Source of the DNA: Shigella phage ESh26
Direction: 5' to 3' (one strand)
Sequence record: ON528736
Length of the DNA: 64,000 nucleotides
The notes under the pieces were generated by a model. The model worked only from the letters and a program-made list of their open reading frames with translations, searched no databases and had not been told where the DNA came from. How positions within the stretch are numbered: the stretch's first letter is position 1; each line of letters starts with the position of its first letter. Positions 12,588 through 40,685 of the stretch are shown one piece after another. The translations under genes and the position numbers were made by a program.

Positions 12588-12618
12588 TTTTGAATAAATA
12601 TCCTTAAAAGGAGGGTCT

Positions 12619-13275
12619 ATGGCAGCACCTAGAATATCATTTTCGCCCTCTGATATTCTGTTTGGTGTTCTAGATCGCTTGTTCAAAGATAACGCTACCG
12701 GGAAAGTTCTTGCTTCCCGGGTAGCTGTCGTAATTCTTTTGTTTATAATGGCGATTGTTTGGTATAGGGGAGATAGTTTCTTTGAGTACTATAAGCAATC
12801 AAAGTATGAAACATACAGTGAAATTATTGAAAAGGAAAGAAATGCACGCTTTGAATCTGTCGCCCTGGAACAACTCCAGATAGTTCATATATCATCTGAG
12901 GCAGACTTTAGTGCGGTGTATTCTTTCCGCCCTAAAAACTTAAACTATTTTGTTGATATTATAGCATATGAAGGAAAATTACCTTCAACAATAAGTGAAA
13001 AATCACTTGGAGGATATCCTGTTGATAAAACTATGGATGAATATGCAGTTCATTTAAATGGACGTCATTATTATTCCGACTCAAAATTTGCTTTTTTACC
13101 AACCAAAAAGCCTACTCCCGAAATAAATTACATGTACAGTTGTCCATATTTCAATTTGGATAATATCTATGCTGGAACAATAACCATGTACTGGTATAGA
13201 AATGATCATATAAGTAATGACCGCCTTGAATCAATATGTGCTCAGGCGGCCAGAATATTAGGAAGGGCTAAATAA
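12619..13275 (+). CDS. t: Holin T
   Basis: 218-aa ORF MAAPRISFSPSDILFGVLDRLFKD... with one N-terminal TM segment; size and position as T4 t. Confidence 0.92.
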   Translation: MAAPRISFSPSDILFGVLDRLFKDNATGKVLASRVAVVILLFIMAIVWYRGDSFFEYYKQSKYETYSEIIEKERNARFESVALEQLQIVHISSEADFSAVYSFRPKNLNYFVDIIAYEGKLPSTISEKSLGGYPVDKTMDEYAVHLNGRHYYSDSKFAFLPTKKPTPEINYMYSCPYFNLDNIYAGTITMYWYRNDHISNDRLESICAQAARILGRAK

Positions 13276-16132: not shown

Positions 16133-16282
16133 TTACTGCATGACTGTGATAACTGTCATGATAACACGTTGAATTCCGAATGCAAGAAGACCTCCTGCTA
16201 CAGCTGGAACAACACCTAAACCCGCCAGTAAAATGCTACCAGATACTAATGCAGCGCTTGTAATACCTATAAATGGACTCAT
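16133..16282 (-). CDS. Small hydrophobic membrane protein (49 aa)
   Basis: ORF below cutoff; ATG overlaps gene 52 stop (ATGA); MSPFIGITSAALVSGSILLAGLGVVPAVAGG...; ends 7 nt before terminator. Confidence 0.4.
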   Translation of the reverse strand: MSPFIGITSAALVSGSILLAGLGVVPAVAGGLLAFGIQRVIMTVITVMQ

Positions 16283-17607
16283 TTGATTTCCTCTAAATCT
16301 TTGGTGTATTCTGTAACTACATCAGTAGTTTTCCAATATTCGTTTTCTTCTTTTTTAGATTTAGCTTCTTCAGCAAGTTTCTTTGCTTCGTCGGAAGTCA
16401 TATGAAAAATGTTCATTCCAACTAGTTTATCAACATAAGAAGAATACATATCAATTTTAGAAAGTTCTTCTGTCAGTTCTTTACGAGTTTTACCTTGTAC
16501 AACAATTTCACCTGAAATTACTTTCTTAATGAAATGTGCCTTGGCAAAGGCTAAACGAAATGCTGATTCAGTTTCTTTGATTTTGTTATCAATTCGTTTC
16601 TGAACATAAGTTTTACGAACTTCAACGAAGTCTTTGATTAAATCAACTACGTTATCGTAAACTTGCAGCTTTCCTTTCTCATTAATAACAGTAATATTCT
16701 GGGAACGACGCTCAATCAACCCGAAGTCTTTCATAATTTTCGCGTGACGTTCTTCTTCATTATCGCTCAAAGAGTATTCTTTGCGGAATTTAACTTTGAA
16801 GCCAAAACCATGCTCACCACAAGCATCATCCCACGTAATGAAGCCTTTATCTTCAAGCGGATCTAAGATTTTACTCACATAAGTTTCACGATCATACTTA
16901 TACGGAATCTCAGTGATATTCATTTGAGTTCGTGAAGTAAACTTGTACGTTCCACGAATTTCATATTGACCGTCAATTTCAACGACTTCACCACGAAATT
17001 CTGGGAATTCTACCTTCGGTTTAGTTACTTTCTTTCCTTGAAGAGCTTGTAGTACAGCTTTCTTGACAGAAGAAACACTATGAGGAAGAATGTAAGTTGC
17101 ATAACCAGTTGCAATACCGGAAACACCGTTAAGAAGAACAGTAGGAATAATAGGCAAATAGAAAGCAGGCGGAATGTGTTCTTTATCTTGATGTACCGGA
17201 GCATATTCAGTATCTTTATATACGCTATAGAAATTTTTACTTACACGAGCAAAAATATAACGACTTGCCGCTGCTTTTTGAACGGTACGAGAACCAAAGT
17301 TTCCTTGACCATCTAACAAAGGAAAGTTATTATTCCAAGTATTAGCCATCAAAGCACCGGCGTCTTGTGCAGAGTTTTCACCATGATGATATCCAAGGTC
17401 CGCTACACCACCTGCAATAGAAGCGAGTTTGTGAAACTTATCTTTATTTCCTCGTGCCAAATCAAGAGCTCGAGCAATAACAAATCGTTGAACTGGCTTA
17501 AATCCATCAATCATATTTGGGATAGCACGATTTTCAACCGTGTACATAGCATAAGCCAATGCTTCATTATCAATGATACTTTTTAAATCGCGATTATTCA
17601 GTTGCAT
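16279..17607 (-). CDS. 52: DNA topoisomerase II medium subunit gp52
   Basis: 442-aa ORF MQLNNRDLKSIIDNEALAYAMYTVENRAIP... GyrA-like N-terminus; size as T4 gp52. Confidence 0.92.
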   Translation of the reverse strand: MQLNNRDLKSIIDNEALAYAMYTVENRAIPNMIDGFKPVQRFVIARALDLARGNKDKFHKLASIAGGVADLGYHHGENSAQDAGALMANTWNNNFPLLDGQGNFGSRTVQKAAASRYIFARVSKNFYSVYKDTEYAPVHQDKEHIPPAFYLPIIPTVLLNGVSGIATGYATYILPHSVSSVKKAVLQALQGKKVTKPKVEFPEFRGEVVEIDGQYEIRGTYKFTSRTQMNITEIPYKYDRETYVSKILDPLEDKGFITWDDACGEHGFGFKVKFRKEYSLSDNEEERHAKIMKDFGLIERRSQNITVINEKGKLQVYDNVVDLIKDFVEVRKTYVQKRIDNKIKETESAFRLAFAKAHFIKKVISGEIVVQGKTRKELTEELSKIDMYSSYVDKLVGMNIFHMTSDEAKKLAEEAKSKKEENEYWKTTDVVTEYTKDLEEIK

Positions 17608-17611
17608 AAAT

Positions 17612-17752
17612 TTACCATACTAGTGAATGTAGTGCCATAATAACATCAGAAATGAAAAGCACGACTTGAATTAATCCGAACATTACTCCATAATATAGTG
17701 CTACTAATAAAGTAGCAAGGGCTAATGAATAGCCCAAGATTTTCTTAATCAT
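17612..17752 (-). CDS. Small hydrophobic membrane protein (46 aa)
   Basis: Hand-translated: MIKKILGYSLALATLLVALYYGVMFGLIQVVLFISDVIMALHSLVW; overlaps upstream ORF end. Confidence 0.4.
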   Translation of the reverse strand: MIKKILGYSLALATLLVALYYGVMFGLIQVVLFISDVIMALHSLVW

Positions 17753-17903
17753 TAGTAGATAACAACACAAATGTTAAATATGCACACATACCCTGGGCTA
17801 AAGCTTGTGAAAACACACTGCTAGCATCGATACAGATAGTTAAAACACATGCTACTATCCAACAAACAAATGAAATAACTCCTAATAATTTTGCGATATT
17901 CAT
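17745..17903 (-). CDS. Small hydrophobic membrane protein (52 aa), possibly the ac homologue
   Basis: Hand-translated: MNIAKLLGVISFVCWIVACVLTICIDASSVFSQALAQGMCAYLTFVLLSTND; T4 ac is a ~51-aa membrane protein at this locus (from memory). Confidence 0.4.
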   Translation of the reverse strand: MNIAKLLGVISFVCWIVACVLTICIDASSVFSQALAQGMCAYLTFVLLSTND

Positions 17904-17910
17904 ATTTTCC

Positions 17911-17991
17911 TCACTGGCGTCCAAAGACGCCTTTTGTTTTAAGATTGTTACGATAGAACTGCATCACATGTTCGTTATGGAAATTACTCAT
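17911..17991 (-). CDS. stp: Stp peptide (26 aa; modulator of host EcoprrI/PrrC anticodon nuclease)
   Basis: Hand-translated [26 protein letters not shown], matching the T4 Stp peptide as remembered; ATG overlaps upstream stop. Confidence 0.8.
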
Positions 17992-18157
17992 ACACACCAC
18001 ACATTTTGCATAAACGTTCAAAACAGATAAATCCGCCACCTACACACATCACGACAGCCACATTATCATTAAGAGGTAGACCTAAAGCCGTAAAGATTCC
18101 AGTCAATGTGAATAAGGCTAAAACTAATAGGTAACCCATTACAAATAGAGCTTTCAT
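17984..18157 (-). CDS. Small hydrophobic membrane protein (57 aa)
   Basis: Hand-translated: [57 protein letters not shown]; ATG overlaps ndd stop (TAATG). Confidence 0.4.
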
Positions 18158-18612
18158 TAGTATGCCTGCAAAACAAATTTAAAGTTATCAGCCAACATAC
18201 GGTTCATTTCTTCAAGCGTTTGATACTCAGAATGATGATTACGAGTAAACGCCAAAGCTAACTGACCTTTTCCAAATCCTGTCGTCAAAGGTTTCATCTT
18301 AGAAGTAGGAAGATAAAATACTGTGTATGGAACATTGTTATTTGCAATAGTACGCGCAAGCTGAGACCGACGCTGACGAATATGACTTAGAACTGCACTG
18401 AACCCTTGTTTAGAACGCTGATTACCTACATAAAATCGTGCAGATACACACGGACTATCAAATGGACCACCAAATTTGCTCACTAAAAAGTAAAATCCAG
18501 GGTTAGACAAAATGTCTTTATGCGGAGTTCCAAAAACCCATTCACCGCCCTTGATTGTACCAATAACAGTTGCGCCTGCATTATTCAAATCAGTAACAGT
18601 CATATATTTCAT
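18157..18612 (-). CDS. ndd: Ndd nucleoid disruption protein
   Basis: 151-aa [36 protein letters not shown]... recognised as T4 Ndd. Confidence 0.9.
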
Positions 18613-18672
18613 GTTAATTTCCTCTAATTATTTTCTACTCCAAGGCCGCATGAATACATACGGCCCGATAAA

Positions 18673-18888
18673 TTAATCGTCGCAGTCGACGCTCAATTCC
18701 CAAAACTCTTCTACGGTATAAGTTTCAGTATCATTTTCAATACAGAAACGTTCATTGCTGTTGTTTGCTAAAGTAGCATTAACTGTCATTTTCTCGCTAG
18801 TGCTCTTAAGAGGTGAAATACGAATTAACTGATCACCATTATCTAAGCAAAAAATTTCACCAACTTTTACATCTTTAAAAATTTTCAT
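18673..18888 (-). CDS. Hypothetical protein (ndd.x)
   Basis: 71-aa ORF. Confidence 0.5.
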   Translation of the reverse strand: MKIFKDVKVGEIFCLDNGDQLIRISPLKSTSEKMTVNATLANNSNERFCIENDTETYTVEEFWELSVDCDD

Positions 18889-19003
18889 AATTCACCTCAG
18901 GGAGTATAAAATCCAAATGCAGTTGTTGACCATCCCATCCAATACGGAAAATTTGCACCAACGTAAAACATGAGAATATAAAACCAACCACTCAGCAAAT
19001 TTA

Positions 19004-35797: not shown

Positions 35798-36001
35798 TCA
35801 CGATTTATCCCCATAGATGTCTCTCATTAATTTAAGCGCTGAGCGTTCTAATTTCTTTTCTTTCTCAGCACTAATCATTGATTTCATCCATTCTTCTGAT
35901 TCGTTCTGCATTTCTTTATTTGCTTGTTCAACCCAACCATCATCAATATACATTGAGTTTGGTCTACTGAACCATTCAAGCATTTTCTTCAGAACTTTCA
36001 T
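35798..36001 (-). CDS. Hypothetical protein (67 aa)
   Basis: ORF. Confidence 0.4.
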
Positions 36002-36473
36002 TTGTTTTACCTAAAACAACAGTAGGAGCATCATCAAATTCATGAATTTTTAGCAAATTTGGATGTAAACTATTCCACACAGAAGAAATAAAGTATGATA
36101 AAGCATCTTCACTTGCAATTATAAATTTATTTCCTTTATCTATTTTCCAACTATATACTGAATCATACGAATAAAAAGATAAAGGGTTATCATTATATTG
36201 TTCTGCGCTAACATTAATGTATTCTGATTTAGTAAATGCTTCAATTGCTCTAAACGGAATATTTGGTACAGTTTCAATAATACCAATCTTTTTAAGTTTT
36301 ATTTCAGCATCTTCTGGAACTGGCATTGAAACGAAATTTTCTACGAGATACATTGGGTCACAATAACCCTTATCAATCATTACCGCTACGGTAATTGGAA
36401 CATCTTTAGCAAACGACAAACTATTACTGCTAATATACATTTCAAACAAAATCGCTTCCATAATTTTCCTCAA
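35976..36473 (-). CDS. Hypothetical protein (165 aa)
   Basis: ORF. Confidence 0.5.
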
Positions 36474-37372: not shown

Positions 37373-37582
37373 TTAAATTACATGACTATTTATAATAAAT
37401 TCTTGCGGAACGTTAAAATACCCAATTTTAGTTAATATAACAACATCACCGTTAATAATTACCGGAGAATAATCGGCTGGAGCATTAAACTTCCAATGGG
37501 CTCTAATATTATATCCATCAGAACCAAATGCTCGACTAGCCGGTCTCCCGGCTTTTTGCCATGCATAAAAATCAAATTTCAT
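37373..37582 (-). CDS. Hypothetical protein (69 aa)
   Basis: ORF between soc and 56, where T4 carries gene 69/segF (from memory). Confidence 0.4.
   Translation of the reverse strand: MKFDFYAWQKAGRPASRAFGSDGYNIRAHWKFNAPADYSPVIINGDVVILTKIGYFNVPQEFIINSHVI
37387..37394 (-). promoter_or_regulatory. Late promoter (TATAAATA) for soc
   Basis: Plus-strand tatttata is TATAAATA on the minus strand, 30 nt upstream of soc ATG. Confidence 0.7.
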
Positions 37583-37782
37583 TTTGAATGCTCTACAATT
37601 AATTTTAAGGCTTCTTCATGCACACACTTACCTAATGGTATATGTCCAGTTTTAATTGTGTAAGCTTTGTGGAGCTGATTAGATAAGAGCTCGTATGTGA
37701 GCTCCTTGTCATAATTTTTAAATAGCTGGTCAATACGTTTCTTGTGGGCTTTCTTAAGCTGACGTTTATTTAAACGAGCCAT
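37579..37782 (-). CDS. Hypothetical basic protein (67 aa)
   Basis: ORF. Confidence 0.4.
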   Translation of the reverse strand: MARLNKRQLKKAHKKRIDQLFKNYDKELTYELLSNQLHKAYTIKTGHIPLGKCVHEEALKLIVEHSK

Positions 37783-38300
37783 TAATAACCTCGGTCTTGA
37801 CGAGCGAAGTTTTCAGCATTTTTCAGATAATAAAGTTTAAAGATTTCTTCAGCCGTAAGACCGAGACCTTGGAACATGTTCAGAACGAAATGAAGAATAT
37901 CAATCATTTCGAATTTAATTTCCAACTGGTCTTGTGGAGACAAATCAGTAATTAAAGTTTCACGACGTTCACCATGCTGTGACTTCCAAGGTTTCCATAC
38001 AGCAGATGCATCTTTTTCGCCATTGCTCATACCACCAAGAGAAGTCAGAAGTTCGCGGAATTCATCATCAATATAATCTTTCTGATTACGCAGCCAATCA
38101 ACAACTTCGCCTGCAGTAGCCAAATCATCAGGATGACGGTTATATTCAGGTTTATCTTTAGCTAAACGAACCTGCAGAGATTTCTGCATATCAAGCATAA
38201 CTTGCAGCGGGTCTTTTTCATCACCGAGAATATCCCAGTATTCATTTTGAGCTTTATCAGCGCCTTCAATCAGTTGTGAACATTCGTTAAAGTATGCCAT
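37782..38300 (-). CDS. 56: dCTPase/dUTPase gp56 (MazG-like NTP pyrophosphohydrolase)
   Basis: Track ORF 37782..38393 begins upstream at a non-ATG codon; ATG at 38300 (MAYFNECSQLIEGADKAQNEYWDILGDEKDPLQVMLDMQ...) gives 172 aa, similar to T4 gp56. Confidence 0.88.
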   Translation of the reverse strand: MAYFNECSQLIEGADKAQNEYWDILGDEKDPLQVMLDMQKSLQVRLAKDKPEYNRHPDDLATAGEVVDWLRNQKDYIDDEFRELLTSLGGMSNGEKDASAVWKPWKSQHGERRETLITDLSPQDQLEIKFEMIDILHFVLNMFQGLGLTAEEIFKLYYLKNAENFARQDRGY

Positions 38301-38334
38301 TATTTTTCCTTTCAATTCATGGGTTAGTAGATTA

Positions 38335-38359
38335 ATTATACAATAAATATATAAAGCAA
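38335..38359 (-). promoter_or_regulatory. MotA-dependent middle promoter for gene 56
   Basis: Minus strand TTGCTTTA (MotA box) - 11 nt - TATAAT about 35 nt upstream of gene 56 ATG. Confidence 0.6.
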
Positions 38360-38371
38360 TAAGGAGGACAT

Positions 38372-38572
38372 ATGGTACAAAAATTAATGGCACTTGTTAA
38401 TGCCATAAAAGGTAATAAAAAACGTATAGCTTTTACTATTTCTGCTATGGTAGGAATTTTACTCTGGAATTTTGTTTTATCACCAATTGCTATTGCTCAT
38501 GGTGTTAATATTCCAGTAATTACTCTTGATACATTCGTAGATTTAGCATTTGCTTTGGTTGGGTTAATTTAA
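38372..38572 (+). CDS. Plus-strand small two-TM membrane protein (66 aa)
   Basis: ATG preceded by AAGGAGG with 4-nt spacing; MVQKLMALVNAIKGNKKRIAFTISAMVGILLWNFVLSPIAIAHGVNIPVITLDTFVDLAFALVGLI; stop overlaps gene 61 stop on the opposite strand. Confidence 0.45.
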   Translation: MVQKLMALVNAIKGNKKRIAFTISAMVGILLWNFVLSPIAIAHGVNIPVITLDTFVDLAFALVGLI

Positions 38573-39597
38573 ATCTTAGCGTATTTAGATAGCCGCATTT
38601 TAGCCATCAACCCTTGGGCAATATTATTTTTCATATATTCCATAATTTGTTTAGGGGTTGCACCTTCCTTTCTAATCATATCATTAACATCCTTTGATTT
38701 CCAGGGAGATTTATCCCAAAACATAACCCTTTCTCCTGCATCAACTAATTTAGTCATTCGTTTAATAGTGTCAGGGTGACGAGGTTCATTATCTAAAACC
38801 CACACACGTCTATCTTTAAATGGAACAATTTCTAGGTCTAATTGACCACCCGTAATAGCTATACCATTTTCAATAAAAAGTGAATCTATAGGTCCTTCTA
38901 GAACATATACATCACCATCTTTGACTCGTTCAACTCCATAGATTTTTGTTGCCTCAGGATAAGCTTTGATGGTGATATATTTTTGAGGAGCATCTTTCTT
39001 TAATGCACGTCCTTGAAAAGACTCGGCTTTTCCGTTAGCATTATAAATTGGAATAACAAGACGAGGCTCGGGCATTTCCTTTTTATATGTTCCTGGCGCT
39101 ATACTATTAACTAATTTAGGCCATTCGGTTGTAAACCAAAGATATTTCCATTTATCCTTTGGAATACAACGAGCTTTTACATATTTTATAATTGGATGGT
39201 CTTCCGCCAGTTTATCTAGTCTAATGCATGACGGAAGAGATTTAATTATTTTCTTCTCAGGTTGTTTAGAAAGTTCTTTAGGTTTTTCTACTGGACGACT
39301 TTTACCTTTTTCTTTTCTTATTTCAAAGATATACTCACGATATAAATCAGGTTCAAACTCCTTTAAATATATTCCGATTGGTGCATGATAGTTACAGTTA
39401 TAACAATGAATATTTCCTTCATTATTATCGCCATAATACCATCCACGGGCTTTATTTTGATCGGTTTTTGAATCTCCACAAACAGGACATCTAAACCGTA
39501 ATTTAAAAGTTGAACTATTATTTACTTGTGCGAATTTAGGTAAATGAGCTAATGCACGGTATGCAAACTCATTATCAATCCAAGGTATTGATGACAT
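38569..39597 (-). CDS. 61: DNA primase gp61
   Basis: 342-aa ORF with N-terminal zinc-binding CPVCGDS...HCYNCNYH; size as T4 gp61. Confidence 0.92.
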   Translation of the reverse strand: MSSIPWIDNEFAYRALAHLPKFAQVNNSSTFKLRFRCPVCGDSKTDQNKARGWYYGDNNEGNIHCYNCNYHAPIGIYLKEFEPDLYREYIFEIRKEKGKSRPVEKPKELSKQPEKKIIKSLPSCIRLDKLAEDHPIIKYVKARCIPKDKWKYLWFTTEWPKLVNSIAPGTYKKEMPEPRLVIPIYNANGKAESFQGRALKKDAPQKYITIKAYPEATKIYGVERVKDGDVYVLEGPIDSLFIENGIAITGGQLDLEIVPFKDRRVWVLDNEPRHPDTIKRMTKLVDAGERVMFWDKSPWKSKDVNDMIRKEGATPKQIMEYMKNNIAQGLMAKMRLSKYAKI

Positions 39598-39599
39598 TT

Positions 39600-39764
39600 T
39601 TACTCTTCTTTTTCTTTAGATTCCTCTTTTTTCTTTTTAGGAATCTGTTCAGGACCTTTATTTACTACAGCGCCTGACGTTGTTCCAGTGGAGATATTTT
39701 CAGGATTACCACCTGAATCTCCAGCTACCATATCTTCTTTGATAAATTCTTTATATGTTTTCAT
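39600..39764 (-). CDS. Hypothetical protein (54 aa; 61.1 position)
   Basis: Hand-translated MKTYKEFIKEDMVAGDSGGNPENISTGTTSGAVVNKGPEQIPKKKKEESKEKEE; below track cutoff. Confidence 0.5.
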   Translation of the reverse strand: MKTYKEFIKEDMVAGDSGGNPENISTGTTSGAVVNKGPEQIPKKKKEESKEKEE

Positions 39765-39765
39765 A

Positions 39766-40392
39766 TTAACCTCTATTCATAAAAGCATTAAAAATTTGGT
39801 CATCAATAGAAACATTTACTTTAGACTGTTTTTCTGATAGTAATTCATATCCACATATTACAATTTTGTGATCAATATCAAAATGCACAGAAGCAATATG
39901 ATTAATGATGTTTTCAGTAAAGTCTAAATCAACATCAATATCTTTTTGACCACAGCCCAAAGGATAAATAATGCGAGTAATTCGATTATCTTTAACAAAG
40001 ATTCCACCGACATACTCTGTGCTGCGTTTAAAGTCTACACGCCGACGAAATGAAAAATATTCAGGCTCTTTATGAGCTCGGCTCATAGGACACAACGAGT
40101 AACTAGAATAAGAGATGTCAAATCCTACGCCTTCAATATGAGCCAAAGTATTACGATTAAACCAATTATAATCGTACGCCAAATCCATTAGATTATAATA
40201 TGTAAAAGGCACCGGATTAACATCATTAGTCACAAGCACGTAATTAGCAATTGCTATAATTTCATTGTTTTTAACGAATACAAACCGTGATTGATGGGAA
40301 TGACCTGGACCCGCGTTTTCACGATTAATGATATAACACTGGGCACCTTTATATTTGTATGTATCTTTGCACTTGTGCATTTGATAGAGCAT
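39766..40392 (-). CDS. Hypothetical protein (208 aa; 61.2 position)
   Basis: ORF. Confidence 0.55.
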   Translation of the reverse strand: MLYQMHKCKDTYKYKGAQCYIINRENAGPGHSHQSRFVFVKNNEIIAIANYVLVTNDVNPVPFTYYNLMDLAYDYNWFNRNTLAHIEGVGFDISYSSYSLCPMSRAHKEPEYFSFRRRVDFKRSTEYVGGIFVKDNRITRIIYPLGCGQKDIDVDLDFTENIINHIASVHFDIDHKIVICGYELLSEKQSKVNVSIDDQIFNAFMNRG

Positions 40393-40685
40393 TATTCACC
40401 TACCACTTCAGCGATGATATTTTTATTATTAAAGTTTTTATCGCAATACAGAACATAATTATACTGCATTACACCACCAGACTTAAGCTGTTTTTGCACT
40501 TCAGCTTTCATTTCAGGACGATCACGCTCAACAATATTCATAATATCTGCTTCAATTTGAGTTTCAACTTCAGTCTGATCTGCAGTCATAGACCATTCAC
40601 ACAAATCTTTGTCATAACCCGCCATAGCAGGCTGAGCAGCACAAGAAGATAAAGCAAAAATTATAGCAAAGATAAATTTTTTCAT
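40392..40685 (-). CDS. Putative secreted/periplasmic protein (97 aa)
   Basis: N-terminal signal peptide MKKFIFAIIFALSSCAAQPAMA. Confidence 0.5.
   Translation of the reverse strand: MKKFIFAIIFALSSCAAQPAMAGYDKDLCEWSMTADQTEVETQIEADIMNIVERDRPEMKAEVQKQLKSGGVMQYNYVLYCDKNFNNKNIIAEVVGE

What the first reader, a model, noticed from the sequence alone, without database searches (positions are those of the whole stretch)
38301..38572. Plus-strand small membrane ORF fills the 56-61 gap where dam is expected
In T4 and T2 the interval between gene 56 and gene 61 carries dam (DNA adenine methyltransferase), as I recall. Here the gap is only about 270 bp and has no minus-strand ORF. It holds a plus-strand 66-aa ORF with a near-perfect Shine-Dalgarno (AAGGAGG, 4-nt spacing) and two predicted TM helices. 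Its stop codon overlaps the gene 61 stop on the opposite strand, and its RBS sits on the MotA box of the gene 56 middle promoter. An antisense-oriented small membrane protein inside an early operon is unusual and could be a toxin, a holin-like protein or an exclusion factor.
Basis: partly seen in the sequence, partly recalled or inferred. Interest (0 to 1): 0.65.

Follow-up and report, generated by a model that had tools for sequence, protein, structure and literature searches.

The report
Conserved late small membrane-protein gene
The small plus-strand ORF next to the primase gene is a real, conserved but uncharacterised membrane-protein gene found in about a thousand T4-like phage genomes, including T4 itself beside dam, so it does not replace dam and is ordinary apart from its unknown function.

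Summary
The 66-aa ORF (38372-38572, +), its AAGGAGG Shine-Dalgarno sequence, the stop-codon overlap with gene 61 and the 266-bp gap are all confirmed. T4 carries the same ORF (94% aa identity) in its own dam-61 gap, alongside dam and without a CDS in RefSeq. The ORF therefore does not fill the dam position. The dam gene is a roughly 0.9-kb cassette that about two thirds of Tequatrovirus records lack.

The ORF belongs to PHROG 2024 (unknown function). Hundreds of genomes annotate it as a hypothetical protein, starting with RB69 and RB32. At least eight named genera of T4-like phages carry it, always on the opposite strand to gene 61 and converging on it.

Within subfamilies, synonymous sites are saturated while pN is only 0.17-0.35, so it codes for a protein under purifying selection. 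A T4 late-promoter box (NATAAATA; AATAAATA here, as at holin gene t in this window) lies 13-33 nt upstream of the ATG in 18 of 19 T4-like copies. It is therefore most likely a late gene.

The predicted product has one long transmembrane helix and a short C-terminal helix, not two clear TM helices. No similarity to holins, Imm, Sp or any solved structure was found. The function remains unknown.

The parts
38372..38572 (+). CDS (with stop) of a 66-aa small membrane protein, PHROG 2024 family (RB32ORF030w/RB69ORF029w homologue)
   Evidence: ORF list. PHROG match E=5.4e-31 over the full length. tblastn finds 692 phage records, 94% aa identity to an unannotated T4 ORF. Within-subfamily pN is 0.17-0.35 against pS 0.55-0.96.
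38361..38367 (+). Shine-Dalgarno sequence AAGGAGG, 4 nt before the ATG
   Evidence: Sequence. A strong SD (GGAGG or GGAG) is kept in all T4-like homologues examined.
38342..38349 (+). T4 late-promoter box, variant AATAAATA (A at -13), 22 nt before the ATG
   Evidence: NATAAATA lies upstream in 18 of 19 T4-like copies that stand first in their operon, and is a perfect TATAAATA in Bp7, F48 and IME523. Only 7 or 8 such 8-mers occur on the + strand of the 64-kb window. Four of these precede SD+ATG: genes 34, 36, t and this ORF. A(-13) is the commonest variant, at 9 of 50 T4 late promoters (PMC2988020). Activity is inferred, not shown.
38352..38360 (-). MotA box (ATTGCTTTA on the minus strand) of the gene 56 middle promoter, the homologue of T4 P(M)16.53, the oriA primer promoter
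   Evidence: Sequence. The T4 record X01416.1 annotates the mot-box and -10 at the homologous place. The NC_000866.4 oriA note and PMC3016281 link this promoter to oriA.
38335..38340 (-). -10 hexamer TATAAT of the gene 56 middle promoter; the late-promoter box of the ORF lies in the 11-nt spacer between this hexamer and the MotA box
   Evidence: Sequence; X01416.1 annotation.
38321..38360 (.). 40-bp junction segment that corresponds to a 919-bp stretch containing dam in T4 (site of the dam cassette indel)
   Evidence: blastn of window against T4: window 38361-38700 matches L001 2488-2829 at 94.7%, and window 37819-38320 matches L001 1070-1568 at 78%.
38387..38406 (-). Hairpin followed by a T-run on the early (minus) strand, inside codons 6-12 of the ORF; weak candidate terminator after gene 61
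   Evidence: Terminator scan. Fold -8.9 kcal/mol, z=-2.25; not conserved in Mosigvirus, Gaprivervirus, Dhakavirus or Mosugukvirus. The same element is annotated 'terminator' in Yersinia phage fPS-65.
37782..38302 (-). Gene 56 (dCTPase/dUTPase), left neighbour, divergent from the ORF
38569..39597 (-). Gene 61 (DNA primase), right neighbour, convergent with the ORF with a 4-nt overlap

Best explanation
The ORF is a genuine, conserved accessory gene of T-even-type phages (PHROG 2024 family). It encodes a protein of about 57-74 aa. It is not a substitute for dam: dam is a separate cassette of about 0.9 kb that is present in some Tequatroviruses (T4, T2) and absent in most, including this one.

Shown: the ORF is a protein-coding sequence under purifying selection, and its position, convergent with primase gene 61, is kept across genera.

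Inferred, fairly strongly: it is transcribed late in infection by gp55-directed RNA polymerase from the AATAAATA box 22 nt upstream of the ATG, and translated from a strong Shine-Dalgarno sequence. With no terminator before gene 61, the late transcript would run antisense into gene 61.

Inferred, moderately: the product is a bitopic inner-membrane protein with this layout:
- a cytoplasmic N-terminal amphipathic helix and a basic cluster (net +5);
- one TM helix at about residues 16-42 carrying invariant Trp32-Asn33 and Pro38;
- a short periplasmic loop (H/Q-G-x-x-L/I-P);
- a short acidic amphipathic helix on the periplasmic side.

Best guess at function (about 25% probability): it works through the conserved periplasm-proximal motif by binding a specific envelope partner, and so tunes a late envelope event such as lysis timing or lysis inhibition. 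It would not be a pore-forming holin or a toxin.
For: Conservation and synteny:
- 692 phage records hold type A, 117 type B and 174 type C (tblastn).
- The ORF lies between gene 56 (or a MazG-like gene) and gene 61, on the opposite strand, in Tequatrovirus, Mosigvirus, Gaprivervirus, Dhakavirus, Marfavirus, Kanagawavirus, Mosugukvirus and Gelderlandvirus, and in metagenomic T4-like contigs.

Coding:
- Nei-Gojobori counts within subfamilies give pS 0.55-0.96 and pN 0.17-0.35, with omega about 0.1-0.5 where it can be computed.
- The reading frame and its length are kept at 23-50% aa identity.

Presence in T4 beside dam.

The dam polymorphism:
- 319 records share the uninterrupted junction, and 184 carry T4 dam DNA; the two sum to the 503 records matched.
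- No Dam homologue in the window.
- Only 234 Escherichia/Shigella phage records hold any Dam homologue, against about 500 Tequatrovirus records with the ORF.

Late promoter:
- NATAAATA lies upstream in 18 of 19 T4-like copies and is absent in the two copies outside T4-like phages.
- The same geometry occurs at genes 34, 36, t and soc in this window; t uses the same AATAAATA variant.
- A(-13) is a known variant (PMC2988020).
- No + strand terminator is predicted downstream.

Topology: AF2 helices at 2-12, 16-42 and 52-62; charge +5 at the N-terminal end and -2 at the C-terminal end; the C-terminal segment has an unfavourable insertion score.

Specific motif: W32, N33, P38, A40 and G44 are invariant across subfamilies, and recognisably the same motif is kept in distant members, with single substitutions in some.
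Against: - No transcript, 5'-end, ribosome-profiling or proteomic evidence for the ORF could be found. The T4 dRNA-seq TSS table is not held.
- The late box deviates from the consensus at -13 in most Tequatrovirus copies. The relative strength of variant late promoters in vivo is unknown (PMC2988020).
- The gene decays in some lineages, so it is dispensable at least in places: an ATT start in the T6 record, truncated or frameshifted forms (P0026, P0027, P0029, P0031), and decayed type B copies in TH40 and NC-G.
- The functional guess has no direct support. Pfam, NCBIfam, PADLOC, PDB and BFVD give nothing beyond the family itself.
- Extensive classical screens for T4 rapid-lysis mutants are not known to have yielded a locus between dam and 61 (my own knowledge; rIV is sp, PMC6832632).
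Confidence: 0.75

Rival explanations
1. One reading: a lineage-specific small membrane ORF has taken the place of dam and acts as a toxin or a holin-like pore former.
For: - The protein is small and hydrophobic.
- One UniRef entry and one GenBank record name a family member 'Holin' or 'putative holin'.
- The Tequatrovirus N-terminus M-V-Q-K-L-M looks like a dual-start motif.
- Polar Asn (and Asp in type B) inside the TM helix could drive oligomerisation.
- A late promoter would suit a lysis function.
Against: - The ORF coexists with dam in T4 and T2, so it is not a replacement.
- It is not lineage-specific.
- There is no charged C-terminal cytoplasmic tail; the charge is at the N-terminus.
- It is not next to an endolysin, and the phage has its own holin t with a late promoter at 12593.
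- The M...K...M pattern is absent in the other subfamilies.
- No holin family matches in Pfam or PHROGs.
- The 'holin' names are automatic labels with no experiment behind them.
- Strict conservation of a specific motif is unlike holins, which conserve composition rather than sequence (my own knowledge).
Confidence: 0.1
2. A late-acting envelope protection or exclusion factor. Under this reading the membrane protein blocks DNA entry or receptor function, or protects against lysis from without, in the manner of Imm/Sp, Cor or Llp.
For: - In the two members found outside T4-like phages, the gene sits where accessory or exclusion genes typically lie. One is after a tail-tip gene and next to a serine recombinase (L018). 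The other is the last phage gene at a prophage edge (L019).
- The conserved motif lies at the periplasmic side of the membrane.
Against: - The known T4 exclusion genes imm and sp are expressed early, whereas this gene has a late-type promoter.
- No similarity to Imm or Spackle families in Pfam.
- The match of the L019 member is borderline (E=8.9e-4).
Confidence: 0.15
3. The main product is RNA. Under this reading a late transcript starting here runs antisense into gene 61 to shut off primase synthesis late, and the ORF is secondary or incidental.
For: - The convergent arrangement, usually with a 4-nt overlap with gene 61, is kept across distant lineages.
- No + strand terminator is predicted between the ORF and gene 61.
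Against: - The substitution pattern shows selection on the amino-acid sequence.
- The strong SD is conserved.
- In Bp7 and in contig L015 another gene separates the ORF from gene 61.
- In the copies outside T4-like phages there is no primase gene downstream.
- An antisense effect can only be an additional consequence.
Confidence: 0.07
4. No gene at all. Under this reading the 266-bp gap is a regulatory spacer (gene 61 terminator, gene 56/oriA middle promoter) and the ORF is a chance reading frame.
For: - ORFs of this length occur by chance in AT-rich DNA; a spurious 65-aa antisense ORF lies at 35817-36014.
- The T4 RefSeq record and the original T4 record annotate no gene here.
- A hairpin with a T-run lies on the early strand inside the ORF.
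Against: - The frame is kept open at similar length at 23-50% aa identity in more than eight genera.
- Synonymous sites are saturated and pN is low.
- The hairpin is not conserved outside Tequatrovirus.
- No Rfam family matches.
Confidence: 0.03

Closest known systems
PHROG 2024 / RB69ORF029w, RB32ORF030w and their 'hypothetical protein' orthologues in Tequatrovirus (e.g. SHFML-26 gp130, YP_009279028.1)
   Same: Same gene: full-length HMM match (E=5.4e-31), 92-100% aa identity within Tequatrovirus, and the same position and strand next to gene 61.
   Different: Nothing of substance. The exact 66-aa sequence of the window occurs in only a few records. The family has no assigned function.
T4 late genes driven by gp55 promoters, such as holin gene t, soc and tail-fibre genes 34 and 36
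   Same: An 8-bp late box, then a strong SD and ATG 18-34 nt downstream. Gene t in this window uses the same AATAAATA variant.
   Different: Late expression of this ORF has not been demonstrated. It lies alone on the opposite strand inside a block of early and middle genes, and its late box sits in the spacer of a middle promoter on the other strand.
Small phage holins (class II, e.g. S21 68) and the T4 class III holin T
   Same: Small size, a membrane helix and probable late expression.
   Different: No charged C-terminal tail, no second clear TM helix, no linkage to an endolysin, no sequence or profile similarity, and a strictly conserved sequence motif.
T4 superinfection-exclusion proteins Imm and Sp (gene 61.3, three genes away in this window at 40392-40685)
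   Same: Small envelope proteins of T-even phages. Sp lies in the same gene 61 neighbourhood.
   Different: Imm and Sp are early genes on the early strand. There is no sequence similarity, and Sp is a secreted periplasmic protein rather than a membrane-anchored one (PMC6832632).
T4 Dam DNA adenine methyltransferase
   Same: Only the neighbourhood: in T4 and T2, dam lies between gene 56 and this ORF.
   Different: Unrelated protein on the opposite strand. Dam is absent from the window and from about two thirds of Tequatrovirus records.

Membership tests
PHROG 2024 (RB69ORF029w/RB32ORF030w family of small T4-like phage proteins) | Full-length match to the family HMM | tested here: met
   phrog_2024, E=5.4e-31, residues 2-66 on profile positions 1-65 of 65.
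PHROG 2024 (RB69ORF029w/RB32ORF030w family of small T4-like phage proteins) | Position between gene 56 and gene 61, on the strand opposite to both, converging on gene 61 | tested here: met
   Window, and T4, SHFML-26, T6, RB32, VR26, JK42, Bp7, F48, IME523, PM2, CGG4-1, NC-G, L015, L020-L022.
PHROG 2024 (RB69ORF029w/RB32ORF030w family of small T4-like phage proteins) | Conserved core motif W-N-x4-P-x-A-x3-G-x2-(L/I)-P after a basic cluster | tested here: met
   W32, N33, P38, A40 and G44 are invariant in alignment A2, and P48 nearly so.
T4 late genes (gp55/gp33/gp45-dependent) | TATAAATA-type box a short distance upstream of the coding sequence | tested here: met
   AATAAATA at 38342-38349, 22 nt before the ATG. 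A(-13) is the commonest natural variant, at 9 of 50 sites.
T4 late genes (gp55/gp33/gp45-dependent) | Conservation of the box in relatives where the flanking sequence has diverged | tested here: met
   18 of 19 T4-like copies have the box, perfect TATAAATA in three genera. It is absent in the two copies outside T4-like phages.
T4 late genes (gp55/gp33/gp45-dependent) | Transcript appears after DNA replication starts and depends on gp55, gp33 and gp45 | not testable with these tools
   No transcript data could be reached. The T4 TSS tables of the dRNA-seq preprint are not held.
Holins | At least one transmembrane helix | tested here: met
   Helix 16-42; KD19 maximum 2.0.
Holins | Hydrophilic, highly charged C-terminal cytoplasmic domain | tested here: not met
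   The C-terminal 24 residues are hydrophobic with net charge -2. The basic cluster is N-terminal.
Holins | Genetic linkage to an endolysin or lysis cassette | tested here: not met
   The neighbours are the dCTPase and primase genes. The phage's holin gene t is at 12619-13275.
Holins | Match to a described holin family | tested here: not met
   No Pfam, NCBIfam or functionally named PHROG match. Foldseek finds only family members.
Holins | Timed lethal hole formation releasing endolysin | not testable with these tools
   Needs an expression and complementation experiment.
Type I toxin-antitoxin-like small membrane toxins | Dedicated antisense sRNA or known toxin family match | tested here: not met
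   No Rfam match in 37500-39800 at E<=1 apart from a chance snoRNA hit. No PADLOC or Pfam match.
Type I toxin-antitoxin-like small membrane toxins | Toxicity on expression | not testable with these tools
   Needs an experiment.
Superinfection exclusion proteins Imm / Sp | Sequence membership of the Imm or Spackle families | tested here: not met
   No Pfam match for the ORF or for 17 other family members at E<=1. Spackle (PF25676) is a separate neighbouring gene.
Dam methyltransferase at the 56-61 locus | Dam homologue present in the interval or elsewhere in the window | tested here: not met
   tblastn of T4 Dam against the window: best E=0.65.

The most novel reading that the evidence does not exclude
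The most novel reading not excluded is this. T4 and about a thousand relatives carry an overlooked late gene that has no CDS in the T4 reference annotation. Its small inner-membrane product would bind a specific host or phage envelope partner through its invariant W-N...P.A...G..LP motif. It would control a late envelope event, such as lysis timing, the still unidentified signal path of lysis inhibition, or late protection of the infected cell. Its transcript would also silence the primase gene by antisense pairing.
Probability: 0.15. Interest if true: 0.6.

Novelty: already known. Interest (0 to 1): 0.27.

Why it matters
As found, this is an ordinary annotated hypothetical gene, and the missing dam is a common cassette polymorphism. 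Neither would surprise a T4 specialist. Two smaller points have some value:

- The reference T4 record (NC_000866.4) lacks a CDS for a gene that is conserved under purifying selection across at least eight genera. The gene also carries a conserved late promoter box.
- It is one of the few remaining conserved small membrane proteins of T-even phages with no function assigned. A deletion in T4 would be a cheap experiment.

Tried and rejected
Searches that returned nothing useful:
- Pfam, NCBIfam and PADLOC scans of the ORF and of other family members: no meaningful match.
- A profile search of PDB sequences, and Foldseek against PDB and BFVD: only the family itself.
- Rfam scan of the region: nothing.
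- Pfam and PHROG scans of the neighbours of the copies outside T4-like phages: only a weak 'minor tail protein' match.

Tools that failed or were limited:
- The search for related loci with a mixed-subfamily alignment failed, because no stretch was conserved enough.
- The word-based homologue search reached only close relatives. tblastn and the exhaustive HMM search were needed to reach distant ones.

Literature:
- Eight literature searches were run. None turned up a paper that mentions the ORF, RB69ORF029w or RB32ORF030w, or a transcript here.
- The Miller 2003 T4 genome review is not held.
- The T4 TSS table of the dRNA-seq preprint is not held.

Ideas considered and rejected:
- A conserved terminator inside the ORF: the hairpin exists only in Tequatrovirus.
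- A dual-start motif (M1...K4...M6): not conserved in the other subfamilies.
- dam relocated elsewhere in dam-less phages: the record counts argue against it. I did not scan a complete dam-less genome.

Full report
THE OBSERVATION

The window holds an ATG-initiated 66-codon ORF at 38372-38572 on the plus strand. AAGGAGG lies at 38361-38367, with a 4-nt spacer before the ATG. The ORF lies between gene 56 (dCTPase, 37782-38302, minus strand) and gene 61 (primase, 38569-39597, minus strand).

The gap between these two genes is 266 bp and contains no minus-strand ORF of its own. The ORF and gene 61 overlap by the palindrome TTAA, so their stop codons share two bases.

A MotA-dependent middle promoter for gene 56 is present on the minus strand. 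Its MotA box ATTGCTTTA is the reverse complement of 38352-38360, and its -10 TATAAT is the reverse complement of 38335-38340. It matches the mot-box and -10 annotated as P(M)16.53 in the original T4 record X01416.1. The T4 RefSeq note on oriA and the review PMC3016281 connect this promoter with priming at oriA.

The Shine-Dalgarno sequence abuts the MotA box rather than sitting on it.

THE DAM ARGUMENT FAILS

A tblastn search with the 66-aa product finds 692 phage records. One is T4 itself, where a 94% identical ORF lies at 17738-17935 on the plus strand of NC_000866.4. In T4 the gene order is 56 (16270-16785), dam (16846-17625), a 309-bp gap without annotation, then 61 (17935-18963). The ORF fills that gap and has the same SD and the same 4-nt overlap with gene 61. 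T2 also has both dam and the ORF. The ORF therefore does not stand in for dam.

Aligning the window with T4 shows that 40 bp of the window (38321-38360) correspond to 919 bp of T4 that contain dam.

The dam-less junction is the commoner state:
- 319 of the 503 records that match window 38200-38700 cover it in one piece.
- 184 records hold T4-type dam DNA. The two numbers sum to 503.
- T6, RB32 and SHFML-26 show the same dam-less order as the window.
- Yersinia phage fPS-65 shows a third state, dam plus an extra 186-aa gene.
- The window has no Dam homologue (best tblastn E=0.65).
- Only 234 Escherichia or Shigella phage records hold any Dam homologue at E<=1e-5, against about 500 Tequatrovirus records with the ORF. 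Most dam-less phages therefore have no dam elsewhere.

I did not scan a complete dam-less genome.

IS IT A GENE?

The product matches PHROG 2024 (unknown function) over its full length, E=5.4e-31. It was annotated in RB32 as RB32ORF030w, 'similar to RB69ORF029w'. Hundreds of records call it 'hypothetical protein'.

The family has at least three subfamilies:
- Type A: Tequatrovirus, Mosigvirus, Gaprivervirus.
- Type B: Dhakavirus, Marfavirus, Kanagawavirus, Mosugukvirus, Gelderlandvirus, and a second tandem copy in Gaprivervirus.
- Type C: Klebsiella, Citrobacter and some Salmonella T4-like phages.

In every T4-like context examined, the gene lies between gene 56 (or a MazG-like gene) and gene 61 on the opposite strand. 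It usually overlaps the end of gene 61 by 4 nt.

Nei-Gojobori counts on a codon alignment of 14 copies give, within subfamilies, pS of 0.55-0.96 against pN of 0.17-0.35. Omega is about 0.1-0.5 wherever dS can be computed. That is the pattern of a protein under purifying selection. A conserved non-coding element would not produce it.

An exhaustive HMM search of 1.84 billion representative proteins finds only 15 clusters, so the family is narrow. The distant members keep a recognisably similar core, W-N-x4-P-x-A-x3-G-x2-L-P, with single substitutions in some.

WHEN IS IT EXPRESSED?

An 8-mer of the form NATAAATA lies 13-33 nt before the ATG in 18 of 19 T4-like copies that stand first in their operon:
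- AATAAATA in the window, RB32, T6 and Mosigvirus.
- GATAAATA in T4, fPS-65, PM2 and contig L015.
- CATAAATA in Gaprivervirus, NC-G and three metagenomic contigs.
- Perfect TATAAATA in Bp7, F48 and IME523.
- CGG4-1 is the exception, with ATTAAATA.

The two copies found outside T4-like phages have no such box.

According to the review by Geiduschek and Kassavetis (PMC2988020), 32 of 50 T4 late promoters are perfect TATAAATA. Nine have A at -13, and most of the rest have one other deviation.

In this 64-kb window the 8-mer is rare on the plus strand: one search counts 8 and one search lists 7. Four of the listed sites are followed by an SD and an ATG: gene 34 (2112), gene 36 (7179), holin gene t (12593, also the AATAAATA variant) and this ORF.

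I infer that the ORF is a gp55-dependent late gene. In the window the late box lies inside the 11-nt spacer of the gene 56 middle promoter on the other strand. No plus-strand terminator is predicted after the ORF, so a late transcript would continue antisense into gene 61.

I could find no transcript, ribosome-profiling or proteomic data. A T4 dRNA-seq preprint reports 150 T4 start sites, 22 of them antisense, but its table is not held.

THE PRODUCT

AlphaFold2 run on an 18-sequence alignment gives mean pLDDT 80 and three helices, at 2-12, 16-42 and 52-62.
- The N-terminal 18 residues carry net charge +5, and the C-terminal 24 carry -2.
- The best 19-residue hydrophobic window is at 23-41.
- The C-terminal segment contains two Asp and has a clearly less favourable insertion score.
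- In type B the C-terminal segment is less hydrophobic still.

The most likely topology is a single span, with the N-terminus in the cytoplasm and a short amphipathic helix on the periplasmic side. Two TM helices are not well supported.

The invariant residues (W32, N33, P38, A40, G44, and nearly P48) lie in the outer half of the membrane helix and the loop after it. This points to a specific binding surface more than to a generic pore former.

No similarity to any described family or solved structure was found.

FUNCTION

Function is not known, and nothing here settles it. Checked against holins:
- There is no charged C-terminal tail.
- The gene is not linked to an endolysin, and the phage has its own holin gene t.
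- No holin family matches.
- The names 'Holin' and 'putative holin' on two records are automatic labels.

Checked against exclusion proteins:
- imm and sp are early genes and are unrelated in sequence.
- The two copies outside T4-like phages do sit in accessory positions, one after a tail-tip gene and one at a prophage edge.

Some lineages carry damaged copies, so the gene is dispensable at least in places: an ATT start in the T6 record, truncated and frameshifted forms, and decayed type B copies in TH40 and NC-G.

My best guess, at about one chance in four, is a late-made inner-membrane protein that tunes a late envelope event, such as lysis timing or lysis inhibition, by binding a partner. 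An exclusion or protection role comes next. A holin or toxin role is less likely. A purely antisense role is unlikely, given the selection on the protein.

VERDICT

The sequence features are real. However, this is a known and widely annotated hypothetical gene of T-even phages, and the absence of dam is a common cassette polymorphism.

What remains of interest is modest:
- The T4 reference record has no CDS for this conserved gene.
- The gene has a conserved late promoter box.
- Its function is still open.

Noticed in passing
L001 2501-2701 (NC_000866.4 17738-17938, + strand): The T4 RefSeq record has no CDS for the homologous 66-aa ORF in the 309-bp dam-61 gap. The identical protein is deposited as 'hypothetical protein' from other records (e.g. 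AEK12294.1).
   Followed up: yes
window 38321-38360; L001 1569-2487; L014 641-1980: The dam locus has three states in Tequatrovirus: no cassette (window, T6, RB32, SHFML-26), dam alone (T4, T2), and dam plus an extra 186-aa gene (fPS-65 g033c). The cassette boundaries fall between the MotA box of the gene 56 promoter and the SD of the small ORF. Each haplotype brings its own late-box variant (AATAAATA or GATAAATA).
   Followed up: partly
L005 2495-2901; L007 1495-1917; L013 1290-1698: Gaprivervirus VR26 has two paralogous copies in tandem (type A then type B). In TH40 the type B copy is decayed. In Dhakavirus-like NC-G a truncated type B copy precedes an intact type A copy.
   Followed up: partly
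L003 2001-2003 (AP018814.1, T6): The T6 record has ATT instead of ATG at the ORF start. The annotators began the CDS at Met6 and named it 'putative head morphogenesis protein'.
   Followed up: no
window 38377-38406, minus strand: A hairpin (-8.9 kcal/mol, z=-2.25) followed by a T-run lies just after gene 61 on the early strand, inside codons 6-12 of the ORF. It is annotated as a terminator in fPS-65. It is absent in the other four genera checked.
   Followed up: yes
window 2112, 7179, 12593 (+), 37394 (-): Late-promoter boxes followed by SD+ATG lie at gene 34 (1289 aa), gene 36 (221 aa), holin t (218 aa, AATAAATA variant) and soc (81 aa, on the early strand). Gene names are from my own recognition of lengths and N-termini and were not checked by search.
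   Followed up: partly
window 37373-37782, minus strand: Between soc and gene 56 the window has two small ORFs (69 and 67 aa), where T4 has the homing endonuclease gene segF. SHFML-26 and T6 share the window's arrangement.
   Followed up: no
L008 1708-2463; L015 3204-3578: In Bp7 a homing endonuclease gene, and in a metagenomic T4-like contig a 124-aa gene, is inserted between the small ORF and gene 61. The overlap with gene 61 is therefore not obligatory.
   Followed up: no
L018 3001-3210; L019 4001-4213: Family members occur outside T4-like phages. One lies after a tail-tip gene and near a serine recombinase (it matches phrog_2024 at E=5.8e-11). The other is the last gene at a prophage edge next to host genes (a borderline match). 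Neither has a late-promoter box.
   Followed up: partly
phage records listed: Family members carry misleading product names: 'putative head morphogenesis protein' (T6, BW-1), 'DNA packaging ATPase' (SAKp28, EI, VAC36), 'dCTP pyrophosphatase' (CGG4-1, dhabil), 'Holin' (OE5505) and 'putative holin' (KP1079).
   Followed up: no
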